Shown one piece after another: positions 4,040 to 34,511 of a stretch of 34,558 nucleotides of DNA. The position numbers and the translations under genes were made by a program. Source of the stretch: Myxococcales bacterium (lineage in GTDB: Bacteria > Myxococcota_A > UBA9042 > JABWCM01 > BTVJ01); assembly GCA_045863395.1 (NCBI GenBank), contig BTVJ01000078.1, positions 1-34,558 of the forward strand. The letters are read 5' to 3'. Positions within the stretch are counted from its first letter, which is position 1; each line of letters opens with the position of its first letter. The notes beneath the pieces are model-generated. The model had not been told where the DNA came from. It ran no database searches and worked only from the letters and a program-made list of their open reading frames with translations.

Positions 4040-4064
4040 CTTCAAACCTCCGCGCTAGTTTCCT

Positions 4065-8565: not shown

Positions 8566-8825
8566 GGTCGCTGCTCCTGGTTTGTACCACCCACTGCTTG
8601 GGTCTACCGGCGAACCACTGACGCTCAATTCCCTTCAAGGCGCTACGTTCCAGCCACTTGGCCATGTGCGTCTCCCCTACGGGGCACACCGCTCCCGACG
8701 GGCAACTTGTCCCCGGGGCGCTCCCCGCACGATCTCCCCTGAGCAGAACGTCCACGGAGAAGCTTCTGACGAAGGGGACTCCCCGAAGCCGGCCCCGCGA
8801 GAGAAGCACGACGGCTCCGGGTCTG

Positions 8826-9734
8826 TCAACCCAACTTCGCTCGCCCCGCCATCTCGACCCCCACCCGCCCGAGCCCGAATGACGTCTGCTTGCCCAGGTG
8901 GACCTGCTCCGCCGCTCGCAGCCACGGCGCGAAGGGCCCCACCGCTCCCTCGAACGTGGCCGTGCCGCCGAGGCCCTGCATGGGGTGGCGCTCATCGCGT
9001 GTGGTCGCCCGCCGTTCCCATCCGTGCGTAGCAAAGTCCGTGGCCACGAGCCGGACCTCCGCGGCGATCCGGCGCAGCTCCTGGAATCTGGCCTCGTCCT
9101 CCTCCCCGATCTGGCCGTAGAGCGCCGCCAGGGTCGCCAGACGGCGGTGAATCAGGGAGAACAGCCCGACGAACGTGGGGCACGTGACCGGCTCCTTGCG
9201 GACCTCCCACGCAAGCGGCGTGCGGCACCGCACGACGACAGTCCCGTCTCCCTCCGCCCCTCTCCCCAGGTCGAGGGCCCGCTCCCGGGCGCCCAGCCTT
9301 CGGACGCCCTGCAGCTCCACGCGCCCCTCGTCCGAGCCCAGGGGGAAGCGCTCGATGCCCTCCAGCATGGCGAGGAGGCGGCTCGCGTCCTCGTCGAGTG
9401 ACCCGAACACCTGCAAGCCCAGGAAGAGGCTGTGGCCCACTCCCAATTGCCGCTGTCCCGGCGTCGGGATGACGGGCACCCAGCGAGCCGGCGGCGTGCG
9501 CTGACCCACGAGCAAGGGGTGCGGCGCCGCCTCCAGGGCGGGCTCGAAGAGGCGCTGATACGCACACGCGCCAGGCTCTCCGCAGTCTCGCTCGCACCGG
9601 GGCGTCCGTGCGCAGGCCAGGGCGTGGAGACTCCTGCCGAGCACTCCGCGGAAGAGGCTGCCGGAGTGCTCCGGCAGAGCGAAGGGGCGCGTCACCCGGT
9701 AGGTGGCGCGCAGCGACGTGACCTTGAGCTCCAT
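8826..9734 (-). CDS. cas6: Cas6 crRNA-processing endoribonuclease (copy 1, Cys-cluster type)
   Basis: GSLFRGVLG, C..C..C..CAY cluster and C-terminal HLGKQTSFGLG G-loop. ATG at 9734 follows GAGGAG. Confidence 0.92.
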   Translation of the reverse strand: MELKVTSLRATYRVTRPFALPEHSGSLFRGVLGRSLHALACARTPRCERDCGEPGACAYQRLFEPALEAAPHPLLVGQRTPPARWVPVIPTPGQRQLGVGHSLFLGLQVFGSLDEDASRLLAMLEGIERFPLGSDEGRVELQGVRRLGARERALDLGRGAEGDGTVVVRCRTPLAWEVRKEPVTCPTFVGLFSLIHRRLATLAALYGQIGEEDEARFQELRRIAAEVRLVATDFATHGWERRATTRDERHPMQGLGGTATFEGAVGPFAPWLRAAEQVHLGKQTSFGLGRVGVEMAGRAKLG

Positions 9735-9765
9735 GTACCGCTCCTCACCGCTTCGTCCCCGTACT

Positions 9766-14074: not shown

Positions 14075-15091
14075 ATGACCGAGCCCATGGACGAGTCACT
14101 GCGCGACGACGACGAGGGGCGGACCGCAGGCGCCGTTCTGCCCGTGGTCCGCATGATGACCGTGGAGCTGTCCCTCGTCGCCGACGAGACTGGCGCCCTC
14201 CCCGCCTGGCCGACCACGACCTTCCGCGGCGCCCTGGGCACCGCCCTGCGCCGTCGCGTCTGTGTGACCGGCTACGAGACCTGCGGCGGGTGTCCCCAGA
14301 TTCTGCACTGCTCCTACGGGCTGCTCTGGCACCCGCCCATGCCCGCCGACGTGCGGATTCCCCGCCGCGCCGAGTCTCCGCCCAAGCCTTACGTCATCGA
14401 AGCCGCCGGGGCTGGCCGCCCCCGGTCCGTCGCGAGAGGAGACCGCCTCGCACTGAGGCTCAAGCTCTTCGGGGACGTCAGAAACCACGTCCCGCACTTC
14501 ATCATGGCCGCCCGCGACGCCGCCGCCGGCGGGCTCGGCGCGCGCCTCCTGCGCTTCGCGCTCGTCGCGGCATCCAGCGTCGACAGAGACGGCCACGCAG
14601 TCCGACTGTGGACCGAGCGAGACGGCTTTCACCGCTACAACGAGCTCCAGCAGATCCTGGTGGCACAGTGGCCTCACGTTCCCGGGCGCAACCGGGTCCG
14701 CCTCTCCCTGGAGACTCCCCTCGCCATCAAGCGTGAGGGCGTGATCGCCTCCCGATTCCATCCAGACGTATTCACCGCGCGGCTCGGCGAACGCCTCGAT
14801 CTCCTGTCACTCTACTTCGAGGGTCGTGAGACTGACTGGGACTTCATGGCCCTCCGAGCGCTCTCCCGCGAGGCCCGGGTCATTCACCACGACGTCCGAC
14901 CCGACTCATTCATGCGAGACGCCGCGCGCCAGAGTCGGCGCGTCCCCATGGAGGGGCTGGTCGGGGAGCTGGTCCTGGAGGGCGTCCATCCACGGGTCCT
15001 GTCGCTGTGGAGGTGCGCGGAGCACATCCACGTGGGCAAGAACGCCGCGTTCGGGTTCGGCAAGGTGCGCGTCGAGGTCCTTTACCCGTGA
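14075..15091 (+). CDS. cas6: Cas6 endoribonuclease (copy 2, Cys-cluster type)
   Basis: TTFRGALG, CVTGYETCGGCPQILHCSY, PKPYVI and C-terminal HVGKNAAFGFG. The start is placed at ATG 14075 rather than the ORF-track start at 13283. Confidence 0.92.
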   Translation: MTEPMDESLRDDDEGRTAGAVLPVVRMMTVELSLVADETGALPAWPTTTFRGALGTALRRRVCVTGYETCGGCPQILHCSYGLLWHPPMPADVRIPRRAESPPKPYVIEAAGAGRPRSVARGDRLALRLKLFGDVRNHVPHFIMAARDAAAGGLGARLLRFALVAASSVDRDGHAVRLWTERDGFHRYNELQQILVAQWPHVPGRNRVRLSLETPLAIKREGVIASRFHPDVFTARLGERLDLLSLYFEGRETDWDFMALRALSREARVIHHDVRPDSFMRDAARQSRRVPMEGLVGELVLEGVHPRVLSLWRCAEHIHVGKNAAFGFGKVRVEVLYP

Positions 15092-15169: not shown

Positions 15170-16972
15170 ATGGACATCGAGAGCATCCGCGCGCTCGCCC
15201 GCGCGGGGAGTCACGACGAAGCCGCCGGCGCGCTGGCGACGGCGCTGGCGGCCCCTGAGCCCCGCGACCACGTGGAGTGGGGCCGCCTGGCGGCCGAGCT
15301 GGGCGACGTCCATGGCGCAATCCGAGAGCTTCAGCTCGCGGTGCGGGACGCGCCGGCCAACCCGGACATCCTCGGAGAGCTGGCGGAGCTGTATCGCGAT
15401 CTCGGGGACGTGCGCCGGGAGGCCGCCCTGAGAGAGCGCCTCGCTGCGCTGGAAGGACGCGAGTGCGCCGCCGACGAGCGCCTGATCCTGCTCCGGGGTC
15501 TCTCCCCGGACGAGCCGCGCGCCAAGCCCCCCGTAGCCCCTCTCGCCGAGGAATCCGATGCGGACCGGGTGCGCTTCGTGCACCTGTTCGGCGGCCGCGA
15601 GGACGTCTACGCCCGCATGTGGTCGGACCCTCGAAAGGGCGTCGGCTACAGCCCCATCGAGCGCCCGCTGACCCCGGACGTGGTCCGGGCCCACCTGGCG
15701 GGAAGCGCCACGGTCGGCTCGTACGTGGTGCGCCTCGACGGGACGGTCACCTTCTTGGTGGTGGACCTGGACATCACGCGCCGCGCAGTCGAGCGGGCGC
15801 GCGGCGACCGGGACGAGACGCGCCGCCTCCGCAGGCTCGTCCACACCGAGGGGCTGCGCCTTCGGAGCGCACTCGAGGAGCGGGGCCTGCCGGCCTTCCT
15901 CGAGGACTCCGGGTACAAGGGTCGCCACCTGTGGTGTTTTCTGCGGGAGCCTCTGCCCGCCGACCTGGCCCACCGGCTCGGGGTCGCACTGACCCGTGCC
16001 CTGGCGCCCCAATCTCGGGATCTCGCGCTGGAGGCGTTCCCCAAGCAAGGGACGGTCAAGGCTGGCGGCCTTGGAAACCTCGTGAAGCTCCCTTTGGGCA
16101 TCCACCTGCGGTCCGGTCGGCGTGCCATGCTCCTCGACGAGGCTGGGGGTGTGGTCCACGACCCGTGGCCTCTCTTGCGCGAGGCGCCACGGCTGGAACG
16201 GGACACTGTGTTGAAGGCAATGGAGACGCTCCGGGCCGCACCGGTCTCCGTGGCCGCCGTGGGGGCCCGAGATGAGGAGGACACCGAGCCGCTCCCCCCG
16301 GTTCAGCGCCCCCTGACCCCGGCCCCCTTCACGGAGGCCGACTTCACGGCGCGCGCCGAGGTGGCGGTCATGCTCCGCGGGTGCCCGGTGCTGGCGTCGC
16401 TGGTCGACCGGGGGCTGACCCACCGCCGCCTGACCCACGACGAGCGGGTCGTGCTGCGGCACTCTCTGGGGCACACCCCGGCGGGCCTCCTCGCCGTGAA
16501 CTACCTCTTCGAGCGCTGCCCGGAGGTGCCGCCGCAGGACTTCCTGAAGACCCGCCTGTCCGGGAACCCCATCTCCTGCGCCGCGGTGCGCCGGCGCGTG
16601 CCCCACGTCTCCTCCCAGGTCGCGTGCCACTGCGAGTTCGCCAGCGCGGGCGACCAGTATCCGTCACCGCTCCTGCACCTGGAGGAGGCACGGGCGCTGG
16701 GGACGCTTGCTCCCCGAACGGTCGCGCCGGAGACTGCGCCCGAGGCCCCTGACGCGCCGGACGCTCAGGAGCTCGCCCGCGCCTACGCCCTGCTCATGGA
16801 GCGGCAGCGCGCCGTCGAAGCGGAGCTCCAGGCGACCCGCGCGGCGCTGCTGGAGCGTGCGACGGCGAAGCCCGACCGCCGGCTGCCCGTGGCGGGTGGC
16901 GCGTGGACCGTGAAGGACGACGAGGGTATGCCCGTGCTCTGCTGGGAGCCAGACCAGGCGCCGGGGGCCTGA
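15170..16972 (+). CDS. CRISPR-associated primase-polymerase (CAPP): TPR - AEP - PriCT-like Cys domain - coiled coil
   Basis: N-terminal TPR-like helices. FGGREDVYARMW, AEP motif I VVDLD (15764-15772), motif II SGYKGRHLW, LEAFPKQ and GNLVKLPLG. Four Cys in GCPVL, ISCAA and CHC. AGGAGG RBS; immediately upstream of cas1. Confidence 0.88.
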   Translation: MDIESIRALARAGSHDEAAGALATALAAPEPRDHVEWGRLAAELGDVHGAIRELQLAVRDAPANPDILGELAELYRDLGDVRREAALRERLAALEGRECAADERLILLRGLSPDEPRAKPPVAPLAEESDADRVRFVHLFGGREDVYARMWSDPRKGVGYSPIERPLTPDVVRAHLAGSATVGSYVVRLDGTVTFLVVDLDITRRAVERARGDRDETRRLRRLVHTEGLRLRSALEERGLPAFLEDSGYKGRHLWCFLREPLPADLAHRLGVALTRALAPQSRDLALEAFPKQGTVKAGGLGNLVKLPLGIHLRSGRRAMLLDEAGGVVHDPWPLLREAPRLERDTVLKAMETLRAAPVSVAAVGARDEEDTEPLPPVQRPLTPAPFTEADFTARAEVAVMLRGCPVLASLVDRGLTHRRLTHDERVVLRHSLGHTPAGLLAVNYLFERCPEVPPQDFLKTRLSGNPISCAAVRRRVPHVSSQVACHCEFASAGDQYPSPLLHLEEARALGTLAPRTVAPETAPEAPDAPDAQELARAYALLMERQRAVEAELQATRAALLERATAKPDRRLPVAGGAWTVKDDEGMPVLCWEPDQAPGA

Positions 16973-16974
16973 CC

Positions 16975-18024
16975 GTGGCCCTGTTGGCGCTGACGGACCC
17001 AGGGGCTCGGCTGACCGTGCGCGCCGGCGCGCTGCTGGTCGAGAAGGCGGGCGCGGTCCTCCACGAGGTGCGCCCCGACGACGTGGACGAGGTGCACGTC
17101 TACGGCGGCGCCGACCTGACCCCCGCGGCGCGCAACCTCCTGCTGCGCCAGGGCACCGACACCCTGTTCTTCACGGCGGACGGCCGGTGGCTCGGGCGCC
17201 TGCTGTCCACGGATAGCCGGAACCCGGTTCGGAAGCTGGCCCAGCTCCGCGTGCTCACCGACCCGACCCTCGCCCTCGCCTTCGCGCGCAGCGTCGTGGC
17301 CGGCAAGCTCATGAATCAGCGACACGTCCTGCTGCGCGTCGCCCGGGACCGGCCGAGCGACACCCTGGCCGGGGCCGTCGCGTCGCTGCGCCAGCTCGCT
17401 CGCCAGGCGCCGGACGCTCAGTCCATGGAAGCCCTTCGAGGGGTCGAGGGCTACGGCGCCGTGGTCTACTTCAAGGGGTTCGCGGAGGCGATCACCCACC
17501 CGGTCTTGCGGTTTGCCGGGCGCAACCGCCGCCCTCCCCGAGACCCGGTCAACGCCTGTCTCTCCTTCGGATACACCCTGCTGCTCGCGCGGGCGGACTC
17601 TGCCCTGCGGCGGGCCGGGCTCGACCCGTCCATCGGCGCCCTTCATGTGCCAGAGCCCGGGAAGCCGGCGCTGGGGCTCGACCTCATCGAGGAGCTGCGA
17701 CCCCTCGTGGTGGACCGCCTGGTCCTGCGCCTGATCAACCGCTCCCAGCTCGCGCCGGACGACTTCGAGGAGCCGGGCATTGCTAGCGAGACCATCGCGA
17801 CCCCGGAGGACCCGCAGGATCCCCCCGTGCGCGCCGTCTGGCTCGGACCGGTCGGGCGCGCGGTGTTCCTGCGAGAGATCGGTCAGCTCTGGCGCACCCC
17901 CTGGGTCGGGCTCGACGGCAAGCGCTGGGCGGCGTCGGCGATCCTGGACCAGCAGGCCCAGGCCATCGCCCGCTTTGTCGAGTCTCCCGACGTGGGATAC
18001 TCTCCCTACCACCCGCCCGCGTGA
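16975..18024 (+). CDS. cas1: Cas1 integrase
   Basis: LRGVEG, RNRRPPRDPVNACLSFGY, GLDPSIGALH and LGLDLIEELRPLVVD. GTG lies 2 bp after the CAPP stop. Confidence 0.96.
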   Translation: MALLALTDPGARLTVRAGALLVEKAGAVLHEVRPDDVDEVHVYGGADLTPAARNLLLRQGTDTLFFTADGRWLGRLLSTDSRNPVRKLAQLRVLTDPTLALAFARSVVAGKLMNQRHVLLRVARDRPSDTLAGAVASLRQLARQAPDAQSMEALRGVEGYGAVVYFKGFAEAITHPVLRFAGRNRRPPRDPVNACLSFGYTLLLARADSALRRAGLDPSIGALHVPEPGKPALGLDLIEELRPLVVDRLVLRLINRSQLAPDDFEEPGIASETIATPEDPQDPPVRAVWLGPVGRAVFLREIGQLWRTPWVGLDGKRWAASAILDQQAQAIARFVESPDVGYSPYHPPA

Positions 18025-18308
18025 CCGCCATGCACCTCGTGGTCTGCTACGACATCATCGACGACCGCCGCCGGACGCGGCTGTTCAAGAGACTCAAGGG
18101 CTTCCTTGTGCCTGTCCAGAAGAGCGTGTTCGAGGGGGTGCTCCCCGACCGGCGCTATCCGGCACTTGTGCGCACCATCCGGTCCAACGTCGACGAGGCC
18201 ATCGACACGGTGCGCATCTACCACCTCTGCAAGGGCTGCGGCGGCCTCACCGAGCTCATCGGCGTGAGCGTCCCGGTCGCGGACGGACCCCAGGACATCG
18301 TGGTGTAG
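18021..18308 (+). CDS. cas2: Cas2
   Basis: VVCYDIIDDRRR, VQKSVFEG, DTVRIYHLC. Start is GTG 18021 or ATG 18030. Confidence 0.96.
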   Translation: MTAMHLVVCYDIIDDRRRTRLFKRLKGFLVPVQKSVFEGVLPDRRYPALVRTIRSNVDEAIDTVRIYHLCKGCGGLTELIGVSVPVADGPQDIVV

Positions 18309-18310
18309 CC

Positions 18311-21274
18311 ATGGCGCAGACCGGATACGTCCCATCCTTCGAGCGGGCCACGTCCGAGACTGCCCTCGCGCGCGCGTGGGCGCACGTCCGGGCAAAGCGG
18401 TCCGCGGCGGGCGTCGACCGGGTGACGGTGGATCAGTTCGCCGAGGGCGTACAGGCCCGACTCGGCGAGCTGTCCGCGGCGCTGCGCAGCGACTCCTGGC
18501 AGCCGCTGCCGGGGCTGCGGCTCGCGTGTCCCGCTCGCCCTGGGCGCGAGCTGGTGATCCCCGCCGTAGCTGACCGGGTGGTCCAGCGCGCGATTGCGGG
18601 AGAGCTGACCCCCTTCTACGACCCGCGCCTGAGCCAGAGCGCCTGGGCGTATCGGCCCGGCCGCTCCGTGGGGCAGGCAGTCGCCAAGGTGGAGCGCATG
18701 GTCCGCGGGGGCATGGGGTGGTACGCCCGGACCGACATCGAGAAGTTCTTTGACCGGATTGATCGGCCTCGGCTGCTGGCGACGCTAGCCGACGAGCTGG
18801 AGCCCCGCATCGTGGAGCTGGTGGGACGACTGCTCACCGCGGGCGCCCTGGAGGGGGCCGTGGTCTTCGATCCCGGCCTGGGAGTCCCCCAAGGGAGCGC
18901 CCTGTCTCCGCTGCTCTCCAACGTGTATCTACGGCCTGTAGATGCGGCCATGGAGGCTGCGGGCTTCGCCACCATCCGGTACGCCGACGACATCCTGATG
19001 CTCGGGGCCACGGAGACCGAGTCTGCCGACGCCCTCGCCTGTCTCGGCGACGCGGTGGAGCGGCTTGACCTGAGACTGTCTGCCCGCAAGACCGCCCGGG
19101 GACACGCCGGCGGCGGCTTCGTCTATCTCGGGGTGCGCTTCGACGCGGGCGGGCGGGCTCCGACCGCGGAGGCGCTGGACGCCCTCGACCGTCGCTGCGC
19201 GGAGAGCGGAGACACCGCGGTTGGGACGCTCGTGCGGGAGTGGGAGCGGTGGTACGGACCGGTCCCCGTGCGCCGCGTGCGATCTCTCGCGTTGCTGGCG
19301 GCCCTGGTGGAGCAAGCGGTCCCAGAGTCTCCACTGGCCTCCGCTCTCGCACGCAGGCGCATGGAGCTCGGCGACGTGCGCGCACACGCAGGAGTCCACG
19401 AGCGCCTCGCCGGGCTGTGGTCCTGCGCTCCTGCCCACCAGGAGTTCCTGTGCGCACTCCTCCTCGATGCGGCGGCCGTGGCGCGGAGCGGCGACTCCGA
19501 ACGCGTGGCGCGGGCGGCGCGGTTCGCCGGGGTGCCCTTGTCGGTCATGCCCGCGCTCGCGAAGGGGATGGACCGCGCACGGGGCGCCCTCGGGGCCTGC
19601 GGGCGGGTGTCTCTGGCCCAGGCAGCGCGGGCGCTCCTCGAGCGAGGGCGGTGGGCTCCGCTGTCCGGGGAAGGCGCACCCGAGGAGGTCGCGGCGGCGG
19701 TGCAGGCGCGAGAGCTGGACGTGTGGGTGCGCCGCCTCGACGGGCGCGAAGGGGTGCACGCCGAGGAGGAGGTCGACGGACGGGGACACCGGCAGCTCAA
19801 CCTGGTGAGGGGACCGCTCACCGCCGACCACCTGCGACGGCACCTGGCCGGAAGGGCGCGAGTCGGGGTCTACCCGGTGCGCTCGGACCAGACGGTGAGG
19901 TTCGCGGTGTTCAGCGTCACCGTGAAGCGGGAGGCGATGCTCCCTCCCTGGGCGGCCGCCGCGGGTGCAGTCCGCCCAGACGACGCGCGGGACCGCTGGC
20001 AGGCGCTTGTCGGGCGGGCCCACGACCACGCCGTGACGGTGGGGCGCGCCATGCACCGGCTGGGGCTCGACCCGCTGCTGGAGGACACGGGCACGACCGG
20101 GCGCCGCGTCTGGGTCCTGTTCGCGGACCCGGTGGAGCTCCGGCACGTACACGCGCTGCTCGGGAGAGTCGAGGAGGCGGTGGGGGAGACGCCACCCGAA
20201 CTGCACCGGGAGCGCGTTCCCGCGCTGGACCGCGTCCTGAACGCGCCCGGGCCTGCCGTGCTGCTCCCCCTGGGGATTGACCCCCGGAGCCGTCGCCGGA
20301 GCGCCTTCGTCGACGTGGGCGGAGCGCCCTTCGAGGACCTGCTGAGCCCGCTCCTCGAGCTGACTGGGGCAGCGCCCTCGGCCATTCGCGGGCTGGTCGT
20401 GCGGGGAGGGCAGCGGACGGAGGACGGCCCGCGCAGCTCAGCAGCCCTGAGGCTCGTGACGCCCTATCCGCGGGCCTTGCGAGTGCTGGCAGGGTGTGCC
20501 GTGCTGCGCGCCCTCGGGGACAAGTTCGCGACCCTGGACCACCTGGAGCGGGAGGAGCGAGCGTCTCTCATCGAGGCGCTGTCGGTCCTGCCGGACCCCG
20601 ATGGATCAGGGGCGCTGGGGGCGCTGCTCCGGGCCACGGAGGGGACGGCGGCGGCGGATCTGCGCTACCGACTGCGTCGTCGGCCGGACCATCCGGTGAG
20701 CTGCGCCAGGCTGCGCCAGCGGCACCCGAAGGCGGCCGCGGCGGGGTGTACGTGTACCTTTCATGGGCTGCACGGAGGAGCGTACCCGACGCCGGCGCTA
20801 CACACGCTGCGGCCGGGGGAGATCCCGGCCTTCCGGGCGCGCATGGAGGAGCGGCGGGCGCGGCGGGGTGGAGCGGGCGGCGCGGGCGGAGCGAGAGGCG
20901 TGATGCCCATCGGCCCGGCGCCTCGGTTGGAGCGGTCGGACGACGGGCGCGGCGGGGTGGCGAGCGGCCCCGTCGAGACGCAGGCGCCCACGAAGCCGCT
21001 CCATGTGGCGACGGAGGCAGGCACCGGCGCCGAGGACGACGGCGCCCGTCCCCTCGACCAGGCCGAGCTGGTCCGCCGCGTCGAGCTGTGGCTGACCAAG
21101 CTCCAGAATCTGCGGACAGCCGCGGAGAACACGGCGCGGGGAATCGCGCGCGCCGAGGAGAGCCTCGCGAGGCTGCTGTCGTCGGCGGGTCTTGACCGAG
21201 TCAAGGTATCACAGGGCTCACTGGTGCTCGTCCCGGGCAGTCCACCTCGCTTCAAGCTGGAGAGAGACCTCTAG
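18311..21274 (+). CDS. CRISPR-associated reverse transcriptase fused to a degenerate CAPP (AEP + PriCT-like) module
   Basis: RT motifs AAGVD, IPAVADRVVQ, AYRPGRS, DIEKFFDRI, PQGSALSPLLSNVYL and RYADD (YADD at 18980-18991). The C-terminal half aligns by eye with the upstream CAPP. The ATG is 2 bp after the cas2 stop; 987 aa. Confidence 0.9.
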   Translation: MAQTGYVPSFERATSETALARAWAHVRAKRSAAGVDRVTVDQFAEGVQARLGELSAALRSDSWQPLPGLRLACPARPGRELVIPAVADRVVQRAIAGELTPFYDPRLSQSAWAYRPGRSVGQAVAKVERMVRGGMGWYARTDIEKFFDRIDRPRLLATLADELEPRIVELVGRLLTAGALEGAVVFDPGLGVPQGSALSPLLSNVYLRPVDAAMEAAGFATIRYADDILMLGATETESADALACLGDAVERLDLRLSARKTARGHAGGGFVYLGVRFDAGGRAPTAEALDALDRRCAESGDTAVGTLVREWERWYGPVPVRRVRSLALLAALVEQAVPESPLASALARRRMELGDVRAHAGVHERLAGLWSCAPAHQEFLCALLLDAAAVARSGDSERVARAARFAGVPLSVMPALAKGMDRARGALGACGRVSLAQAARALLERGRWAPLSGEGAPEEVAAAVQARELDVWVRRLDGREGVHAEEEVDGRGHRQLNLVRGPLTADHLRRHLAGRARVGVYPVRSDQTVRFAVFSVTVKREAMLPPWAAAAGAVRPDDARDRWQALVGRAHDHAVTVGRAMHRLGLDPLLEDTGTTGRRVWVLFADPVELRHVHALLGRVEEAVGETPPELHRERVPALDRVLNAPGPAVLLPLGIDPRSRRRSAFVDVGGAPFEDLLSPLLELTGAAPSAIRGLVVRGGQRTEDGPRSSAALRLVTPYPRALRVLAGCAVLRALGDKFATLDHLEREERASLIEALSVLPDPDGSGALGALLRATEGTAAADLRYRLRRRPDHPVSCARLRQRHPKAAAAGCTCTFHGLHGGAYPTPALHTLRPGEIPAFRARMEERRARRGGAGGAGGARGVMPIGPAPRLERSDDGRGGVASGPVETQAPTKPLHVATEAGTGAEDDGARPLDQAELVRRVELWLTKLQNLRTAAENTARGIARAEESLARLLSSAGLDRVKVSQGSLVLVPGSPPRFKLERDL

Positions 21275-21276: not shown

Positions 21277-23472
21277 TCACCACAGGTTGTGGCGGATTCC
21301 CCCAAGGACCGCGCGCCCGCGCTCGGGCCAGGTCGCGGCTTGATCGAGGCACCCGAAGTGGCCAGCCGATGACGGAGGGGCCGTCTCGTCCCAGGCGCTG
21401 GTGCCGGCGTGGGCGATGACGGCCGCCTGGAGCTCGCGGAAGGCCGAGGCGATCTGCGGGGTGCAGTCCCGGGCGTGGTCGCTCAGCGCGAGAGCTCCCC
21501 GGAGCGCGGCGGCGCGGCCGAGGACACGGAGGACTCCCTCGCCGCGGAGGTGCGTCGCTGCATCCGAGTAGGCCGCTGCGGCTCGCTCGGCGCCGGCGCG
21601 GTCCGTGGCGACCCGCTCCTCGAGGAGCCCGACCGCCTGCCGGATGAGGCCGAAGGGGTGCTGCGCCCTCTCGCCCTCGGGCCAGGCGTCGAGGGGAGAC
21701 TCCGCGTGCCACCGGGAGAGGACCTCGCGAACAGAGTCGAGTGGCGAGAACACCGCATGGCCCTTGAGCTGCAACGCCAGCACGAACTGCTGCCCTCTCT
21801 GGCGGATGGGAGACAGTGACGCGACGGCGAGGTGCTCGCAGACCTCTCGCCAGAGAGGGGCGCCGCTGGCGCCACGGTCGCACGCCAGGTGCCCGAGGTA
21901 GACCCACTGTCGCTCAATGTCTCTCGGGTCATCCATGTGATCGAGCGCGACTCGAAACGCCACCTCGGCAGTGTCCGTGTGTCCCGCCATGGCCTCCACC
22001 TGCCCCAGGGTCCCGTAGCAGGCCCCGACCGAGCGGGACCGAGGAGTCTGGCCGATCACACTCGCGAGGCGCCCGATGGACGACTCCTGCAGGTGGATGA
22101 CCTCCTCGAGAGTCCTGCGCGCCTCGTCGAGATTCAGCCGGTCGAGGAGGCTCACTGCGCGCCGGTTGCGCACGTCCGCGACGGTGTCGATTCCCGAAGC
22201 GCCCCGAGCGGCCAGCGCCGGCTCGTCCCGGAGATACTCCGCCCACAACGCCTCGGCCTGCGCCGAGTCTGCCATGTGGTTGGCGGCGGACAGACGCGCC
22301 CGCGTCCACTGCACCCGGATCCTCACGTCGGCCGCGTCGCCCAGGTCGAGGAGGCGGTAGCACCTCTCTGCGCGGATCAGGCCAGCCTCGAGCCCACCCG
22401 GCGCGTCGATCTCGTCGCACGCCGCGTCGAAGGCAGCCCTCAGCAGGGGAGACTCAGCGGCCAACAGGGGCGCGGCCTCGGCGTCCAGCGCCTGGATCAG
22501 AGCGGAGTAGCGCAGGCGCTCGGTCTTTGGGGCGGTGTCCAGGTCGCGCCTCCGGGCCAGGAAGCGGTCCAGAGAACGCTGCTCGATGGCCTCGCGCAGA
22601 TCCGCCAGCGCAGAGAGCCACGGCCCATAGGAGACTCGCGCGAGGATTGGGACCAGGGGCTCGGTCATGGTGGTCGCGCCCCTGGCAAGCCGCAGCTCAC
22701 GCTCGCGCTCTCGTCCGAGTGCCAGGTCTGCCAGGTAGAGGGCAGCAGGGCTTCGCCCGCCGGCGTAGTCGATGGGCTCGACGCTCACACCGGTCAGGTT
22801 CAAGCCGGTCCGGGCCCATCGGTCCTGGCCGGCGGCCCACACGAGCGCGCGGAGCTCCCGCTCGCTCACGATGCCGTGTATGGCGAGAGCCGAGTGGCCG
22901 CGGCGCCTCATCTCACGCACCTTGTAGCCCAGCGCCTCCAGCGCCTCCCGGTCCGCCGCAGTCCCCGCAAACACCCAGCTCCGCTCCGCGACGTGCAGGT
23001 GCAGCTCCCATGAGGGAGACGTGAACGCGCGAAGCAGAGTCGGGTCGGTGAAGACCAGGTGCTCCAGCAGCCCGAACAGCATGGCCACGTAGCGATTGTC
23101 CCGCTCCCTCTCCCTGACGAAGCGTGGGCCTTCGGTCACGCTGTCTTGCCTGTGCATGACGGTCACGCCACGGACGCGTCCATCGGGATCGACCTGCGAG
23201 ATCGCAGCCTGGAGGGCCGTGGCCAGCGCCTCCCGCTGCTCAGGCCCAAGCGCACAGTCGCCCCCATGAAGATCGCGGGGCATCTGGCCGCCGACGCTCT
23301 CCACGGCGGTCCGGAGCGCCTCCCGCAACCGTGCGTCGAGCCCGTCGTCGTAGGGGCCGAGTACGCACACCCCGCCGACGAGTCTCACGTCTCCGGCCTC
23401 GTTTCTGTCGATTCTGCCGCTCTCGTCGATGAAAATGTGTACATCGTTGAACGGTGCTCGCAGATTCTCCAT
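21277..23472 (-). CDS. Hypothetical protein: N-terminal RNase H-like (DUF3800-like) domain plus C-terminal TPR-like helical region
   Basis: HIFIDESG...LVGGVCV and LYLADL resemble DUF3800 motifs. A TPR-like segment reads GACYGTLGQVEAMAGHTDTAEVAFRVAL. GGAGG precedes the ATG at 23472; 731 aa. Confidence 0.7.
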   Translation of the reverse strand: MENLRAPFNDVHIFIDESGRIDRNEAGDVRLVGGVCVLGPYDDGLDARLREALRTAVESVGGQMPRDLHGGDCALGPEQREALATALQAAISQVDPDGRVRGVTVMHRQDSVTEGPRFVRERERDNRYVAMLFGLLEHLVFTDPTLLRAFTSPSWELHLHVAERSWVFAGTAADREALEALGYKVREMRRRGHSALAIHGIVSERELRALVWAAGQDRWARTGLNLTGVSVEPIDYAGGRSPAALYLADLALGRERERELRLARGATTMTEPLVPILARVSYGPWLSALADLREAIEQRSLDRFLARRRDLDTAPKTERLRYSALIQALDAEAAPLLAAESPLLRAAFDAACDEIDAPGGLEAGLIRAERCYRLLDLGDAADVRIRVQWTRARLSAANHMADSAQAEALWAEYLRDEPALAARGASGIDTVADVRNRRAVSLLDRLNLDEARRTLEEVIHLQESSIGRLASVIGQTPRSRSVGACYGTLGQVEAMAGHTDTAEVAFRVALDHMDDPRDIERQWVYLGHLACDRGASGAPLWREVCEHLAVASLSPIRQRGQQFVLALQLKGHAVFSPLDSVREVLSRWHAESPLDAWPEGERAQHPFGLIRQAVGLLEERVATDRAGAERAAAAYSDAATHLRGEGVLRVLGRAAALRGALALSDHARDCTPQIASAFRELQAAVIAHAGTSAWDETAPPSSAGHFGCLDQAATWPERGRAVLGGIRHNLW

Positions 23473-23605
23473 GTCGTACCCTCCCGTGAGTTGGACTGTG
23501 AGCTCGCCCGTTGTCGTCTGCGCCGCGGAACCATACCACAGTCGAATTCCTTTGACACCGGGGGGACAGGTAGGCGACCTTCGCGGGTCTACGGCGAGGG
23601 AGATG

Positions 23606-24337
23606 ATGGACACGTTCATTTGCACGGTTGGCACGTCGGCGCTCACCAACACGCCGCCCCCCGGGTCCCGCCGGGCGGCGCTCGGTCTCAGCTTCGAGGC
23701 TCGGTCTACGCTGGGTAAGCCGGGGACTTTCGGGAATCAGCAGCCCTTCCGCGAGGCTGCCGTTACCGACTACGTGGAGGTGCTCGGCCGGGCGGCGGTG
23801 GCTGCCAATCGGGGTGACGAGGCCGTGGTGCGGGACCTTCTCAGGCAGGTGTCCGCCGAGCTGAGCTCCCTCGCCCTGCTGCGCTTCATGAGGGTCAGGC
23901 GCGGCCTCGGACGCGTCGTGCTCGTCTCGTCAGACACGGGACCAGGGAGCATCGCCGCGACCATCGTGGGTGAGGCGATTGAGAAGTGCTGGCCGGTGGA
24001 GGAGCTGCACACCGAGCTGTGCGCAGGGCTCGATCCCGAGGATCAGGGCCGGTTTCTGGGCACTGGTCTCCAGAACCTCCAGGAGCTTGTAAAACGCAAC
24101 GTCGAGACGTGGCGGGACGGAACCGTCCATCTGAACATCACGGGCGGCCTGAAAGGGGGGATTCCGTTCTTGACTGCCATCGGCATGAAGCACGGCTTGC
24201 CCATCGTGTATCTCTTCGACCAAGGGCTGGGAGTGAGCTGGATCGACGGCCGGGTCCTGGCCTTGCAGGTCCAGGGCGGCGGAGACTGGGGCTCCGCGGC
24301 AAAGAGCACCTCATTTGCGGACATGCCCCTGGGATGA
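23606..24337 (+). CDS. Stand-alone CARF-domain protein, APE2256/Crn1-like (putative ring nuclease)
   Basis: FICTVGTSALTN, SAELSSL, SSDTGPG, FLGTGLQNL, LNITGGLKG and IVYLFD are hallmark motifs of this family. No fused nuclease domain. Confidence 0.82.
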   Translation: MDTFICTVGTSALTNTPPPGSRRAALGLSFEARSTLGKPGTFGNQQPFREAAVTDYVEVLGRAAVAANRGDEAVVRDLLRQVSAELSSLALLRFMRVRRGLGRVVLVSSDTGPGSIAATIVGEAIEKCWPVEELHTELCAGLDPEDQGRFLGTGLQNLQELVKRNVETWRDGTVHLNITGGLKGGIPFLTAIGMKHGLPIVYLFDQGLGVSWIDGRVLALQVQGGGDWGSAAKSTSFADMPLG

Positions 24338-26551: not shown

Positions 26552-26699
26552 GTCACCGCCTCCCCTCCCGCAGAGCCCCCGTCACAACGCCGACGTGAGT
26601 GCTCCAAGCTCTATGAAAACAGCGCATTACGCTCTCGTGCCTCACTCTTCATCAGCTCGCGAGGTGACTTCGCTATGACGTCCATGTCACACCCCAAGC

Positions 26700-26918: not shown

Positions 26919-29900
26919 GTGCCGACCCCTTCCCCGACTACGAGGGGATTGAGACTTTCCTCCCGCCTCGTAGGCCAATTCCCTACCAGAAGGCAGTGCC
27001 GACCCCTTCCCCGACTACGAGGGGATTGAGACACGGCCTACACGCACCCCCCAGACTTGACGGACGACCTTCTGTGCCGACCCCTTCCCCGACTACGAGG
27101 GGATTGAGACTTTCGACGGTTATGATCCTGGTCGAGATGGTGCAGAATGGCGTGCCGACCCCTTCCCCGACTACGAGGGGATTGAGACTGCAACGCCTTG
27201 TCGAGCCCGTCGAGCCTGCCGCGGTTGGTGCCGACCCCTTCCCCGACTACGAGGGGATTGAGACCGGTCGCGGGCTTGACGTTGATCGACAGGTGGACCC
27301 GTCGGTGCCGACCCCTTCCCCGACTACGAGGGGATTGAGACTTCTCTGCCGCTTCCCGGAAGCTGTCAATTGCATTGTCCGTGCCGACCCCTTCCCCGAC
27401 TACGAGGGGATTGAGACGAGGATGAGGGCCAGGACGGCCAGGGTGAGGTGCAGTCGGGTGCCGACCCCTTCCCCGACTACGAGGGGATTGAGACGGGCGG
27501 GGTCGTGTCGGGCTGGGACGTGTCGGCGCTGGGTGCCGACCCCTTCCCCGACTACGAGGGGATTGAGACGTGCGTGCAGTACCCGTCCCCGTCCGCGTCC
27601 ACGCAGGGCGTGCCGACCCCTTCCCCGACTACGAGGGGATTGAGACTGTCCGATACTATTCGCGTCGGACCCACGCGCCGGAGTTGTGTGCCGACCCCTT
27701 CCCCGACTACGAGGGGATTGAGACCTTCAGGCTCGTGTACCGAAGGTCCGCGCCCGTCAGGTTGTGCCGACCCCTTCCCCGACTACGAGGGGATTGAGAC
27801 GTCCGCGTCCTTCAGGCTCGTGTACCGAAGGTCCGCGCCCGTGCCGACCCCTTCCCCGACTACGAGGGGATTGAGACGGCCAAGTATGCCGCTTTGGTCG
27901 CTGCCCGGAAATCGTCGTGCCGACCCCTTCCCCGACTACGAGGGGATTGAGACAATGAAGACGGCCGGCCCACCTTGACTCCCCAGACTTGAGTGCCGAC
28001 CCCTTCCCCGACTACGAGGGGATTGAGACCCCTGGAGGTCCGCGCCCGACAGGTTTGCACCCGTCAGGGTGCCGACCCCTTCCCCGACTACGAGGGGATT
28101 GAGACCTCAGAGTGCCCAACTCAATAAGCGCGCCGCCGAGCGTTGGAGTGCCGACCCCTTCCCCGACTACGAGGGGATTGAGACTGGTGACCGTCGTCGT
28201 CGCCGGGGTGGTGACCGCCGTCGTGTGCCGACCCCTTCCCCGACTACGAGGGGATTGAGACTGTGACCACGAGGTCACTCATGTTCGCTCGTAGCCACGG
28301 CGTGCCGACCCCTTCCCCGACTACGAGGGGATTGAGACCTCGCCACAGCTTTGCAAACCCCGCTCGCCGGAACCGTTCCCGTGCCGACCCCTTCCCCGAC
28401 TACGAGGGGATTGAGACTTCCACCGCTGCCCGGAAGCTGTCAATTGCATTGTCCTGAATGTGCCGACCCCTTCCCCGACTACGAGGGGATTGAGACACTC
28501 GCCAGCCGCCGCGGCCGCACGAATCTCGTTGCCCAGTGCCGACCCCTTCCCCGACTACGAGGGGATTGAGACGAACGAAAACCGACACTCCCGGCGCGAC
28601 GGTACCGTCCTGTGCCGACCCCTTCCCCGACTACGAGGGGATTGAGACACTATACCGCCCGCGACCCCCCCAAAAATCACAAACGGGATCGGTGCCGACC
28701 CCTTCCCCGACTACGAGGGGATTGAGACTGCCCGTGGCAAATAAAGGTGTCGGAGGTTCGCGCCCTGGGTGCCGACCCCTTCCCCGACTACGAGGGGATT
28801 GAGACAACAAGGTCATCCATGTTCGCGCGCAACCAAGGCCAGAAGGTGCCGACCCCTTCCCCGACTACGAGGGGATTGAGACTGTCCGTCGGGTCCTGTC
28901 ACAACCCAATTGTGGTTTGGTGCCGACCCCTTCCCCGACTACGAGGGGATTGAGACGATGATTTTCTCAACATCTTCCCTTGCGATACCGGCCGAGTGTG
29001 CCGACCCCTTCCCCGACTACGAGGGGATTGAGACCAGTAGCATATGCCGCTTCGGCCGCTGCCCGGAAGTTGTCAGTGCCGACCCCTTCCCCGACTACGA
29101 GGGGATTGAGACTGTGGAACCTCACCCAAGGCCAGAAATTGGCCTCGGTGAAGTGCCGACCCCTTCCCCGACTACGAGGGGATTGAGACTAGCATATCCT
29201 CCCGTGTCCACGTCAACAGACCCTGAGGGGTGCCGACCCCTTCCCCGACTACGAGGGGATTGAGACTACCGACCTTGACTCCCCAAACAGAGCGAATGAC
29301 CTTTTCGAGTGCCGACCCCTTCCCCGACTACGAGGGGATTGAGACAGGTCCACACGCGCCATGGACCACTGGGGCAGAAGGGCTTGTGCCGACCCCTTCC
29401 CCGACTACGAGGGGATTGAGACTCCTATCGTTGTCACACAAGGAATGCAGCCTAGCAACCGGTGCCGACCCCTTCCCCGACTACGAGGGGATTGAGACTA
29501 CATGGCCCTTTGATAGCCTCCAGCTGGTCCACCTTGGACGTGCCGACCCCTTCCCCGACTACGAGGGGATTGAGACCCCAGCCGATAAAGGGCCTACATG
29601 GCCCTTTGATAGCCTGTGCCGACCCCTTCCCCGACTACGAGGGGATTGAGACCGCGACCACGGCGCTCCCGGCGCCGAATGCGGCGCCGGCAGGTGCCGA
29701 CCCCTTCCCCGACTACGAGGGGATTGAGACGCAGCATGGCGCCGCTCCCCTCGTACACGGGGGTGGCGTCCCCGTGCCGACCCCTTCCCCGACTACGAGG
29801 GGATTGAGACTTCTCCTCGAAGCGGGCGTCCTCGATGACAAGGTCGTTGAAGTGCCGACCCCTTCCCCGACTACGAGGGGATTGAGACTTGTTCGACTGC

Positions 29901-32900
29901 CCAGCCGATAAAGGGCCTACATGGCCCTGTGCCGACCCCTTCCCCGACTACGAGGGGATTGAGACTTGCACCTTGCATCTGCGCGCCTGCAAGGATTGCA
30001 GTGCCGACCCCTTCCCCGACTACGAGGGGATTGAGACTCACCGATCGTGAGGTTGATCGGCATCTCCACGTCCTGGTGCCGACCCCTTCCCCGACTACGA
30101 GGGGATTGAGACCAGCGCCCGACCGTCTCCGGCTCCCAGCCAAAGTTGTTGAGTGCCGACCCCTTCCCCGACTACGAGGGGATTGAGACTTCAGCGGCGC
30201 GAAGCCTACCTGTACTTCCCCGAAAACCAGTGTGCCGACCCCTTCCCCGACTACGAGGGGATTGAGACGTCCTTCACGCAGAGGCAGTCCTCGTCCACCT
30301 CTTCGTTGGTGCCGACCCCTTCCCCGACTACGAGGGGATTGAGACGTCCTCCTCGTACCGCCGGCGCCGGGGGGCGTGGCGATGTGCCGACCCCTTCCCC
30401 GACTACGAGGGGATTGAGACTACCCGCGTCCTTCGCGGTCTTTGCCGCTGCCTCGAAATCTGTGCCGACCCCTTCCCCGACTACGAGGGGATTGAGACCG
30501 TTGCCGCAGAGTCCGGGGGTCGTACCGCCGTCGCCGTGTGCCGACCCCTTCCCCGACTACGAGGGGATTGAGACACTTCGAGAACCTGCCTCTTCATCTG
30601 TTGCCTCCGTTGTGTGCCGACCCCTTCCCCGACTACGAGGGGATTGAGACCTTCGCCTTCTTGGCCTCCGCCTTCGCGGCGGCCTCGGCGGCGGGTGCCG
30701 ACCCCTTCCCCGACTACGAGGGGATTGAGACTGACAGCGTCGTCCTCGTCCAGGGTCTCGGCCAGTCGGATCGTGCCGACCCCTTCCCCGACTACGAGGG
30801 GATTGAGACGATCTGGTGCTTGCGCTCCTCCCCGACCGACATACGGCCCAGTGCCGACCCCTTCCCCGACTACGAGGGGATTGAGACTTGCTCGTGTCCG
30901 ACGGGCAGCGCCGGCACTCAGCGAAGTGCCGACCCCTTCCCCGACTACGAGGGGATTGAGACAGCCGGCCTCTGGTCGCGCGACCGGCATGTGCCCGGCG
31001 TGCCGACCCCTTCCCCGACTACGAGGGGATTGAGACGGTGGCCTCTTCGCCGGGCTGGAAAAACGCCCGCAGAGCCCCGTGCCGACCCCTTCCCCGACTA
31101 CGAGGGGATTGAGACTGCCGTCTTGGTGAACCCGGGCGGCGCGGGCTTGAGAGAGGGTGCCGACCCCTTCCCCGACTACGAGGGGATTGAGACTGGCGGC
31201 CGGGGGCGGGCAGGCCTTGGGCAGGGCGGCGATGTGCCGACCCCTTCCCCGACTACGAGGGGATTGAGACTTCCCTGCGGTGTCCATGGTGCGCGGGCCG
31301 GCGTTCCTCCGTGCCGACCCCTTCCCCGACTACGAGGGGATTGAGACGTTGACAAATAATAGGTCCCAACGAGAAGTTACTGCATTGAGTGCCGACCCCT
31401 TCCCCGACTACGAGGGGATTGAGACAACTGCGGCATGAGGGTCGCGGCGACGACGATGGCCAGGCCGTGCCGACCCCTTCCCCGACTACGAGGGGATTGA
31501 GACGAAGGCTCCGAGGGAACGGGCAGGGCTCATCAGGCAGGGGTGCCGACCCCTTCCCCGACTACGAGGGGATTGAGACTTTTGACCAACCCCCGCACAG
31601 CTGGGTCGACCTTTGGTGCCGACCCCTTCCCCGACTACGAGGGGATTGAGACCGGGGTGGCACCGACCGCCGGCGGGACCGCCGGGATCATACGGTGCCG
31701 ACCCCTTCCCCGACTACGAGGGGATTGAGACTAAGTTTCATGGTTTTTCCTCTTTGTCCGCACTCCGTTTTGGTGCCGACCCCTTCCCCGACTACGAGGG
31801 GATTGAGACACGGGAGGGCGGAAGGCACCGCGCGGATTGTTGCAGGAGCGGGTGCCGACCCCTTCCCCGACTACGAGGGGATTGAGACAGGCCGCCTCCG
31901 CCGCCGCCCACCGGGCGGCCTTGATCTCGGTGCCGACCCCTTCCCCGACTACGAGGGGATTGAGACTGTTCGCCCGTCATCGCGTCGCATTTATCCCCGG
32001 CCCAAGTGCCGACCCCTTCCCCGACTACGAGGGGATTGAGACCGTGATGGCCGTCCGTCTGGCCACAGCCCCGCGATCCGCAACGGTGCCGACCCCTTCC
32101 CCGACTACGAGGGGATTGAGACCGTTGCCGCTGGCATGGCCCCCACGGGCAGAGCCAGGAACTGTGCCGACCCCTTCCCCGACTACGAGGGGATTGAGAC
32201 TTCGCCTCGGCCGCCTCGCGCGCGAGCTTGTCGGCCTGGGCCTGGTGCCGACCCCTTCCCCGACTACGAGGGGATTGAGACTCGGCCGCGGGGGCCTTGG
32301 ACGCCCGGCGCTCGGCGCGCTTGTGCCGACCCCTTCCCCGACTACGAGGGGATTGAGACATCAGCGGGAGGCGGTGGCACCGAAGCACCGCCACCACGTG
32401 CCGACCCCTTCCCCGACTACGAGGGGATTGAGACTGGCCGAACGTCTCCGTGAGCATCTTATTGTAGTACCCGAGTGCCGACCCCTTCCCCGACTACGAG
32501 GGGATTGAGACTGCGACGCCTGCTCCAGCGGGAGCCCTCGGTAGGTGACCAGTGCCGACCCCTTCCCCGACTACGAGGGGATTGAGACATACGGCTGTTG
32601 TCGGGTACGCACCAGCCGTCGTGGTCGGTGCCGACCCCTTCCCCGACTACGAGGGGATTGAGACTTGGCAACGGGCGCCTTGACCTCGATCGGGGCAGGG
32701 GGTGCCGACCCCTTCCCCGACTACGAGGGGATTGAGACTTATGGGAACCGCGCCACCCACCGGACCACTACTGCAGGGCGGTGCCGACCCCTTCCCCGAC
32801 TACGAGGGGATTGAGACCTTGCCGTCGCATGCCTCCTTGGTGAGCGCGGCCTCCGTGGGTGCCGACCCCTTCCCCGACTACGAGGGGATTGAGACTAGAT

Positions 32901-34511
32901 GTAGACGCGGACGCCCCAGGGAACACCGTTGACGTAGTGCCGACCCCTTCCCCGACTACGAGGGGATTGAGACGCCCGGCGATTCTCCGGCCATGCGACC
33001 GAGCCGTTGTAGCCAAGTGCCGACCCCTTCCCCGACTACGAGGGGATTGAGACGACTCTGGCCCCTTCCAGGGGCCGACCTCATCGTGGCGGCGTGCCGA
33101 CCCCTTCCCCGACTACGAGGGGATTGAGACGCCAGGAACTCTTTGACCAGCGCCAGCACAGCGCGGTCGAGTGCCGACCCCTTCCCCGACTACGAGGGGA
33201 TTGAGACGTTGACACACTCCGTCCTGCCTCGGGCCGTCGCCAGCAAGTGCCGACCCCTTCCCCGACTACGAGGGGATTGAGACGGGGAACCCGCCCCCCC
33301 TGAGCCAGTCCCGAAGGGCCGTCGTGCCGACCCCTTCCCCGACTACGAGGGGATTGAGACGTGCAGGCCTCCTGCGTGACCGCCGCGGCCTTGGCCTCCT
33401 GTGCCGACCCCTTCCCCGACTACGAGGGGATTGAGACCTGCCCGTTGACGCAGGACTCGAGGCCGTCGCACAGATCCGTGCCGACCCCTTCCCCGACTAC
33501 GAGGGGATTGAGACTCGACGAGTTGTAGGGGGTGAGCGAGCTGAGTCGGGAAGTGCCGACCCCTTCCCCGACTACGAGGGGATTGAGACAGGGGAGCGAG
33601 CCGCGTGTGGGCTCGGGTTGTTGCTTTCCGGTGCCGACCCCTTCCCCGACTACGAGGGGATTGAGACTCGAGGATGTTGCCGATCGCGTTGCGCGCCCAG
33701 CCGATGGAGTGCCGACCCCTTCCCCGACTACGAGGGGATTGAGACAACACGGACGCGAGGGCCTGCGTCAGCGAGAAGGGCTTGTGCCGACCCCTTCCCC
33801 GACTACGAGGGGATTGAGACTACGCCGCCCTCTCGTCGTCGCGCTGCTTGGCCCGGCACAGTGCCGACCCCTTCCCCGACTACGAGGGGATTGAGACGAA
33901 CGCCTCGCGGCGTACCGCCTCGACCAGAAGCGCATGGTGCCGACCCCTTCCCCGACTACGAGGGGATTGAGACATGCCCAGCCATGGCCTCAGGATGAAC
34001 TGGTGAGTCGAGTCGTGCCGACCCCTTCCCCGACTACGAGGGGATTGAGACCCGGACTCGATGACGCCGAGGTCACCACCGCCGGTTCCCCCGTGTGCCG
34101 ACCCCTTCCCCGACTACGAGGGGATTGAGACTGAGCTTCTTGGGCGGGATCTGGACGGTGGCGACCGGCAGCGTGCCGACCCCTTCCCCGACTACGAGGG
34201 GATTGAGACTCGATGATAGACTCTTCGTCCATCTTCCCAGACTCGTGTGCCGACCCCTTCCCCGACTACGAGGGGATTGAGACCAGTGCAGCGGGGAGAG
34301 GGCCACGTTGAAGTGCCAGGAGTGCCGACCCCTTCCCCGACTACGAGGGGATTGAGACCGCTCGTGAGGAGCGGGAGGAGGGAGGTAACCAACTGAGTGC
34401 CGACCCCTTCCCCGACTACGAGGGGATTGAGACCGGCGCTGGGGCCGGCGTCGTCCTCGGGCCAGTCGGCGTCCGTGCCGACCCCTTCCCCGACTACGAG
34501 GGGATTGACAG
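26919..34511 (+). CRISPR. CRISPR array, 37-bp repeat GTGCCGACCCCTTCCCCGACTACGAGGGGATTGAGAC, 99 repeats / 98 spacers of about 35-44 bp (manual count)
   Basis: Repeats appear invariant, with a period of about 77 bp. Hairpin TCCCC/GGGGA; 3' 8-mer ATTGAGAC is the crRNA 5' tag. The last copy (34475) ends in ATTGACAG, marking the trailer end and the + orientation. Confidence 0.99.

What the first reader, a model, noticed from the sequence alone, without database searches (positions are those of the whole stretch)
29499..29928. Three overlapping spacers rebuild a 70-nt protospacer centred on a hairpin
Seen: spacers 29889-29928, 29577-29615 and 29499-29539 overlap with perfect identity to give TTGTTCGACTGCCCAGCCGATAAAGGGCCTACATGGCCCTTTGATAGCCTCCAGCTGGTCCACCTTGGAC. 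This contains the stem AAAGGGCC-TACAT-GGCCCTTT. All three are on the same strand, and the antisense strand has an open frame (SKVDQLEAIKGPCRPFIGWAVEQ). Inference: three independent captures from one structured site suggest structure-directed acquisition (RT or primase start/stop at a hairpin) or a very small genome such as an RNA or ssDNA virus.
Basis: partly seen in the sequence, partly recalled or inferred. Interest (0 to 1): 0.72.

Follow-up and report, generated by a model that had tools for sequence, protein, structure and literature searches.

The report
Spacer hot spot in RT-primase CRISPR
A bacterium's RNA-targeting CRISPR memory holds three overlapping snippets from one hairpin-forming site of an unidentified invader; such pile-ups are known for this CRISPR class, and the hairpin may help capture but is not required.

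Summary
Spacers 39, 35 and 34 overlap exactly (29, 21, 11 nt) over 70 nt with a perfect 8-bp stem. They lie in a 98-spacer array of a type III-B locus with a CART-CAPP adaptation module.

One strand is what type III interference selects. An open frame occurs in 85% of shuffles.

The triple is one of six same-strand clusters (18 of 98 spacers). Only it has a perfect stem of 8 bp or more, two clusters are unstructured, and the three spacers share no end, so RT start/stop at the hairpin is unsupported.

A weaker hairpin bias has support. Nine CART-CAPP arrays show 34 stems of 6 bp or more against 11.5 expected; type I-G arrays show 9 against 8.1. In a second genome, 6 of 14 clusters sit on stems of 8 bp or more.

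No target was found. Best reading: transcript-linked hot spots on a recurring, variable invader, with hairpins favoured. An RNA virus stays open (about 0.25). The scan's earlier notes held no match on other DNA.

The parts
29499..29539 (+). Spacer 34 (newest of the triple); covers 30-70 of the 70-nt site, begins at the first loop base
29577..29615 (+). Spacer 35; covers 12-50 and holds the whole hairpin
29587..29607 (.). Perfect 8-bp stem with 5-nt loop; not called as an intrinsic terminator on either strand
29889..29928 (+). Spacer 39 (oldest of the triple); covers 1-40, ends 2 nt short of the stem's end
26919..34511 (+). CRISPR array, 99 repeats of 37 nt, 98 spacers of 35-44 nt; last repeat degenerate, so the leader is on the low-coordinate side (inferred)
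27342..29075 (+). Cluster A: spacers 6, 13, 20, 28 (27342-27380, 27878-27916, 28418-28459, 29035-29075); diverged variants of one site, unstructured
27725..28068 (+). Cluster B: spacers 11, 12, 15; antisense reads as pentapeptide repeats (by eye), as do spacers 24 and 40 and one type I-G spacer (C126_21)
27033..29308 (+). Cluster C: spacers 2, 14, 31; variants with 11 of 17 variable columns at one codon position, unstructured
28262..29152 (+). Cluster D: spacers 18, 25, 29; variants; 18 and 29 fold into long imperfect hairpins, 25 does not
32512..32551 (+). Spacer 73: 40/40 match to G000:C136:11235-11274, antisense to a Rad50/SMC-like ORF in a prophage-like stretch; fixes the array's orientation
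1765..8628 (-). Type III-B effector operon: Cmr2/Cas10 (GGDD present, no N-terminal HD domain), Cmr3, Cmr5 and three RAMPs (Cmr1, Cmr4, Cmr6 by position)
8826..9800 (-). Cas6
14093..15091 (+). Second Cas6 (start approximate)
15170..16972 (+). CAPP primase-polymerase (NF040561, 275 bits over cut-off 200), DxD motif intact
16903..18024 (+). Cas1
18030..18308 (+). Cas2
18311..21274 (+). [quoted passage not shown]
23429..24337 (+). Cas_APE2256-family (putative CRISPR accessory) gene

Best explanation
The triple is a type III spacer hot spot. Over one stretch of its history (spacers 2-39) the host met a recurring, variable invader. The CAPP-Cas1-Cas2-CART module repeatedly captured pieces from a few short, transcribed sites of it, most likely the strongly or early expressed genes of a phage family. 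Only spacers antisense to the transcript guide Cmr, so only those were kept. A hairpin raises the odds of capture at a site (exposed stem-loops in nascent RNA or in the displaced DNA strand) but is not needed and does not set the spacer ends. Shown: overlaps, clustering, strand, locus type, stem excess across CART-CAPP arrays. Inferred: the target's nature, early expression, and that the stem excess arises at capture rather than from the target or from which overlaps can be detected.
For: Six same-strand clusters, 16 of the first 39 spacers against 2 of the other 59 (p=3e-6). No pairs but four or more clusters of three or more is not fitted by uniform sampling of 2 kb or more (p<=0.003; criterion set after seeing the data). 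Antisense coding bias in 71 of 98 spacers (p=5e-6), and the one full genomic match is antisense to a prophage-like ORF. Pentapeptide-repeat targets are shared in kind with the DNA-targeting I-G array. Length-matched and one spacer per cluster: stems of 6 bp or more 34 of 330 vs 11.5 expected in 9 CART-CAPP arrays, 9 of 219 vs 8.1 in 5 I-G arrays (Fisher p=0.005; array level p=0.04; without G212 p=0.03). In G212, 6 of 14 clusters vs 1 of 56 singletons have a stem of 8 bp or more, above the 3-6% of 60-nt windows in ssRNA phages. Precedent: PMC8860593 (hairpins), PMC13575424 and PMC7515739 (early genes, strand selection).
Against: No target was identified, so early phage genes are an inference. 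In this array only 1 of 6 clusters has such a stem (p=0.2-0.5) and mean folding z is -0.04. The free-energy version of the enrichment (63 of 361 vs 20 of 223, p=0.003) fell to non-significance after length matching and collapsing clusters (36 of 330 vs 19 of 219, p=0.24). The G212 cluster effect weakens at a 7-bp threshold (p=0.046; pooled over 3 arrays p=0.065). One I-G array (L038) shows the same stem excess (ratio 3.4). The 3-fold stem excess equals that of RNA phage genomes (2.4-3.9), so no capture bias is needed if targets are RNA viruses. The host's own I-G array also shows an antisense bias (48 of 71). There is no adequate control of type III arrays from RT-free genomes.
Confidence: 0.5

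Rival explanations
1. The target is a small, structured RNA genome (RNA phage or other RNA replicon) with many strains. The RT copies it into spacers roughly at random, and pile-ups and hairpins follow from small size and RNA structure.
For: Intact RT and a Cas10 without HD domain. The G212 array fits 50-90 spacers from 3-10 kb, best 60 from 4 kb. CART-CAPP stem excess (3.0) matches MS2, Qbeta, PP7 and phi6 (2.4-3.9), not Mx8, phiX174, the host or its prophage-like contig (0.8-1.2). One G212 cluster keeps all 27 of 27 pair cells with 2 double changes. 0 of 37 I-G spacers of G212 convincingly overlap its 93 CART-CAPP spacers. Precedent: Roseiflexus RT III-B array against partiti-like phages (10.1101/2022.02.15.480533).
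Against: This array's cluster sizes do not fit uniform sampling above about 1 kb. Pentapeptide-repeat genes are a DNA-phage or cellular feature (my knowledge). Across G212 clusters, variant bases break target-strand pairs 14 times against 6 kept; the result is reached by 63 of 500 shuffles. Target-strand folding is only marginally better than spacer-strand (35 of 63, p=0.06). I recognised no clear RdRp motif in the translations (by eye).
Confidence: 0.25
2. Ordinary selection on a large DNA phage: spacers are taken at random, survivors target a few protective sites, and the hairpin is incidental.
For: One triple among 98 spacers from a single 40-kb genome has probability 0.36. A stem of 8 bp or more in one of six clusters has probability 0.02-0.04. 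Position and strand bias by selection alone was shown in Thermus (PMC7515739). This array's stem excess is borderline.
Against: Four or more triples from 40 kb has probability 0.0008. It does not explain the stem excess in CART-CAPP versus I-G arrays or 6 of 14 hairpin clusters in G212. Self-folding guides and folded targets should be selected against, not for (inference).
Confidence: 0.17
3. Strict structure-directed mechanism: the RT or primase starts or stops at the hairpin and so defines the prespacer.
For: Spacer 34 begins at the first loop base and spacer 39 ends within the 3' arm. Stems abut a spacer end in 21 of 59 CART-CAPP cases (7 at 5', 14 at 3').
Against: No shared end among the three; a stop at the stem would end cDNA near position 21, and none does. 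End-abutting stems are expected from truncation of longer hairpins (my estimate, not simulated). Clusters A and C lack structure. CART primes at template CC in vitro (PMC10415136; PMC11014452), yet GG starts are 4 of 98. The fused Prim-Pol lacks its DxD motif.
Confidence: 0.08

Closest known systems
Type III-A hairpin-biased adaptation in Streptococcus thermophilus (PMC8860593)
   Same: RNA-targeting system; spacer hot spots overlap inverted repeats and hairpins.
   Different: That system is III-A with plain Cas1-Cas2 and no RT, measured on new spacers. Here it is III-B with CAPP and CART-CAPP, natural spacers, and hairpins that seem to lie in coding sequence.
Early-gene hot spots of type III spacers (PMC13575424; PMC7515739)
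   Same: Spacers pile up in a narrow region and are antisense to transcripts.
   Different: Target and promoter are unknown here, so early expression cannot be shown; the system has an RT.
CART-CAPP adaptation modules (PMC10415136; CAPP: PMC8211822, listing only)
   Same: [quoted passage not shown]
   Different: This locus also has a stand-alone CAPP with intact DxD. The passages I saw give biochemistry, not natural spacer content.
Roseiflexus RS-1 RT-Cas1 type III-B array against partiti-like RNA phages (10.1101/2022.02.15.480533)
   Same: RT-bearing III-B array that may tile small, variable genomes.
   Different: There the RNA virus was found; here no target was found, and the RT is fused to Prim-Pol rather than Cas1.

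Membership tests
Type III-B CRISPR-Cas | Cas10/Cmr2 with GGDD palm plus Cmr1, 3, 4, 5, 6 | tested here: met
   TIGR02577 178 bits over cut-off 79; Cmr3, Cmr5 and three RAMPs; GGDD. Cmr1, 4, 6 named by position.
Type III-B CRISPR-Cas | Spacers antisense to target transcripts | tested here: met
   71 of 98 by codon model; spacer 73 antisense to an ORF. The I-G array also leans antisense (48 of 71), so the codon test is not specific.
CART-CAPP adaptation module | RT fused to Prim-Pol, beside Cas1 and Cas2 | tested here: met
   RVT_1 plus AEP-TOTE in one 987-aa protein; Cas1 and Cas2 adjacent.
CART-CAPP adaptation module | Active RT, inactive fused Prim-Pol | tested here: inconclusive
   Motifs agree (YADD present, DxD lost); activity not assayed.
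Hairpin-biased type III adaptation | Spacer sources enriched for hairpins over a DNA-targeting system | tested here: inconclusive
   Perfect-stem measure met across arrays (p=0.005); free-energy measure not met after matching (p=0.24); this array borderline.
Hairpin-biased type III adaptation | Bias arises at capture, independent of interference | not testable with these tools
   Needs newly acquired spacers in an interference-dead strain.
RT start/stop at a hairpin | Spacer ends coincide with one stem boundary or a priming motif | tested here: not met
   Ends at 1/12/30 and 40/50/70 against a stem at 22-42; GG starts 4 of 98.
Early-gene hot spot | Protospacers lie just downstream of an early phage promoter | not testable with these tools
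   Target not found.
RNA-virus target | Protospacers in an RdRp-encoding or circular RNA absent from DNA | tested here: inconclusive
   No match in the collections searched, which are mostly DNA; indirect signs mixed.
Intrinsic terminator | GC-rich stem followed by a U-rich tract | tested here: not met
   Not among the 3 sites called in 26600-30100 (2.1 expected).

The most novel reading that the evidence does not exclude
CART-CAPP arrays of Myxococcota record an uncatalogued group of small, highly structured, fast-varying RNA viruses or replicons, captured by reverse transcription with a preference for stem-loops. Arrays such as this one and that of G212 are partial tilings from which those genomes could be found.
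Probability: 0.25. Interest if true: 0.75.

Novelty: new member of a known kind. Interest (0 to 1): 0.42.

Why it matters
Where RT-linked arrays get their spacers is an open question: most have no known source (PMC5513706), and how CART-CAPP works in cells is untested (PMC10415136). The triple alone is ordinary. The comparison it led to gives a testable lead: a 3-fold excess of perfect stems in CART-CAPP arrays, and dense same-strand tiling of variable targets in 2 of 9 arrays. It either extends hairpin-biased capture to RT-primase systems or points to unknown RNA viruses of myxobacteria.

Tried and rejected
Target searches, all without a match: viral contigs, 8 of 8 scans (exact stretches of clusters E, A, B and of a G212 cluster; degenerate codon motifs for clusters D, C, E, A). 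Metagenome contigs, 2 of 2 scans (hairpin core; the repeat). blastn of the first 40 spacers against phages and plasmids, and of the G212 array against phages: only hits at E 0.07-0.8. Spacer 35 with up to 3 mismatches in 401 genomes: only the array itself. 40 relatives: no convincing shared spacer. Own genome: no protospacer for the triple. Sequencing runs: none was listed, so no reads were laid. A peptide-level locus search could not be run on a single spacer, which leaves distant relatives of the target untested.

Rejected: array duplication or assembly artefact (offsets differ, flanks unique); terminator; open frame as evidence; conserved RNA structure across variants as a general rule.

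Arrays left out of the comparison: L020, L023, L028 (partial repeats or contig ends), L029, L032, L046 (3-4 spacers), L002, L005, L007 (duplicates); L049 dropped out of the 33-nt test. Type I-G was confirmed by gene content only for the own genome; the other four were assigned by repeat type and the long Cas1 frame. L052 and L045 were assigned to the CART-CAPP group by repeat type and an RT locus elsewhere in the genome.
Full report
Observation. The window is contig C78 of its genome. From 26919 to its end it holds 99 copies of a 37-nt repeat and 98 spacers. Spacers 34, 35 and 39 overlap exactly by 21, 29 and 11 nt on one strand. Overlaid they give 70 nt with no conflict in 39 overlapped columns and a perfect 8-bp stem at 22-42. 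The overlaps are far beyond chance. The stem is uncommon (0.3-0.6% of shuffles), but the 70-mer as a whole folds only moderately (z about -2.2). The open antisense frame means little: 4 of 6 frames are open and 85% of shuffles have one. The stem is not called as a terminator.

Locus. [quoted passage not shown] The RT has YADD; the fused Prim-Pol has lost the DxD that the stand-alone CAPP keeps, as reported for CART-CAPP fusions (PMC10415136, passages). A Myxococcota record holds a 51%-identical homologue. The genome has a second RT-Prim-Pol locus on C64, a third similar array on C99 and a type I-G system on C126. Spacer 73 matches a prophage-like ORF on C136 40/40, antisense, and 71 of 98 spacers read better as antisense to coding sequence. 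The shared strand of the triple is therefore what RNA-targeting interference selects, as shown in Thermus (PMC7515739, passages).

The triple is not alone. A nucleotide threshold finds 14 of 98 spacers in five clusters, 11 of 11 edges on one strand; codon-level comparison extends this to 18 spacers in six clusters. Sixteen lie among spacers 1-39 (p=3e-6). Clusters A, C and D are diverged variants of one site each; C and D vary mostly at one codon position, A does not. Cluster B reads as pentapeptide repeats, as does one I-G spacer at about 80% identity. One triple among 98 spacers from a 40-kb phage is not rare (0.36), but four are (0.0008). No pairs with four or more larger clusters is not fitted by uniform sampling of 2 kb or more (p<=0.003) and barely by 1 kb (up to 0.05). 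These are hot spots.

Start/stop model. A cDNA made on the target RNA would run from position 1 to 70 and meet the stem at 22. The three spacers end at 40, 50 and 70 and start at 1, 12 and 30. None starts with GG, the product of priming at template CC (PMC10415136; PMC11014452, passages), and only 4 of 98 spacers do. The model is not supported, though trimming by Cas1 could blur ends.

Comparison with other arrays. I searched 301 genomes of the phylum with the RT, fetched loci for the best hits and for other Cas1 genes, and parsed 21 arrays. Raw folding scores favoured CART-CAPP arrays (63 of 361 vs 20 of 223 below z -2, p=0.003), but this fell to 36 of 330 vs 19 of 219 (p=0.24) after trimming to 33 nt and keeping one spacer per cluster. 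The count of perfect stems of 6 bp or more survived: 34 vs 11.5 expected, against 9 vs 8.1 in I-G arrays (p=0.005; array level 0.04; without G212 0.03). This array alone gives 7 vs 3.3 (p=0.05), and one I-G array shows a similar excess. RT-Cas1 arrays gave 6 vs 2.2.

Six of 14 clusters but 1 of 56 singletons carry a stem of 8 bp or more (p<1e-4; p=0.046 at 7 bp; the threshold came from the finding). Six of the nine CART-CAPP arrays had no cluster, and L026 had two pairs without stems.

DNA or RNA target. RNA phage genomes have a 2.4-3.9-fold stem excess; Mx8, phiX174, the host and its prophage-like contig have 0.8-1.2. The CART-CAPP excess is thus what RNA viruses would give without any capture bias, and the G212 array fits 60 spacers from about 4 kb. 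But stems of 8 bp or more occur in only 3-6% of 60-nt windows of ssRNA phages, well below 6 of 14, so some preference for hairpins, or better conservation and hence detection of overlaps there, is still needed. Compensatory change was seen in one cluster only and breaks outnumber kept pairs 14 to 6. All searches for a target failed, so the question stays open.

Verdict. The site is a real spacer hot spot of a known CRISPR type. Hot spots at hairpins (PMC8860593, passages) and at early genes (PMC13575424, abstract and first part of the Discussion) are described for type III-A without RT, and an RT-bearing III-B array that targets RNA phages is known (10.1101/2022.02.15.480533, passages). Most RT-linked spacers have no known source (PMC5513706, passages). 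PMC13739734 (passages) added nothing. Seven literature searches listed no paper on the natural spacer content of CART-CAPP arrays; the library lacks most subscription papers, and I read no supplements, which may hold spacer-target tables. The triple is a new member of a known kind. The cross-array stem excess and the tiling in G212 are the leads worth following.

Noticed in passing
L022:12996-19958 (G212:C65): CART-CAPP array with 34 of 90 spacers in 14 same-strand clusters of variants, many on perfect 8-11-bp hairpins in apparent coding sequence; fits a 3-10 kb target. A better object than the window's array for finding the invader.
   Followed up: partly
window 26956-34474: 41 of 98 spacers begin with T against 19% background (p=1e-7); weaker in L022 (29 of 90), absent in I-G arrays. 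Unexplained.
   Followed up: partly
window 32512-32551: Spacer 73 matches the host's own contig C136 perfectly; I-G spacer C126_49 also matches C136 (36 of 38). A prophage-like element is targeted by both systems.
   Followed up: partly
L051 spacer 4 and L052 spacer 5 (G000:C64:39631-39669, C99:23907-23943): Two other arrays of the genome share a 26-nt exact same-strand overlap.
   Followed up: no
window 29587-29607 and L022:17414-17453: The window's hairpin shares 12 nt (5' arm, loop, start of the 3' arm) with a G212 cluster hairpin, but in opposite orientation relative to the crRNA; probably chance (seen by eye).
   Followed up: no
L022 spacer 9: One antisense frame holds a GDD with hydrophobic flanks, like an RdRp motif C (recalled); one such among 90 spacers is within chance.
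   Followed up: no
window 21277-23652 (-) and 23986-25566 (+): Two long ORFs between the RT and the array match no Pfam or NCBIfam family; possible accessory effectors of the type III system.
   Followed up: no
window 9766-14048: An FG-GAP/ASPIC protein, an FGE-sulfatase protein and small membrane or lipoproteins interrupt the locus between the Cmr operon and the adaptation module.
   Followed up: no
L038 (G212:C81): Type I-G-like array with low-GC spacers (44%) and an excess of structured spacers (9 of 37), unlike the other four I-G arrays.
   Followed up: no
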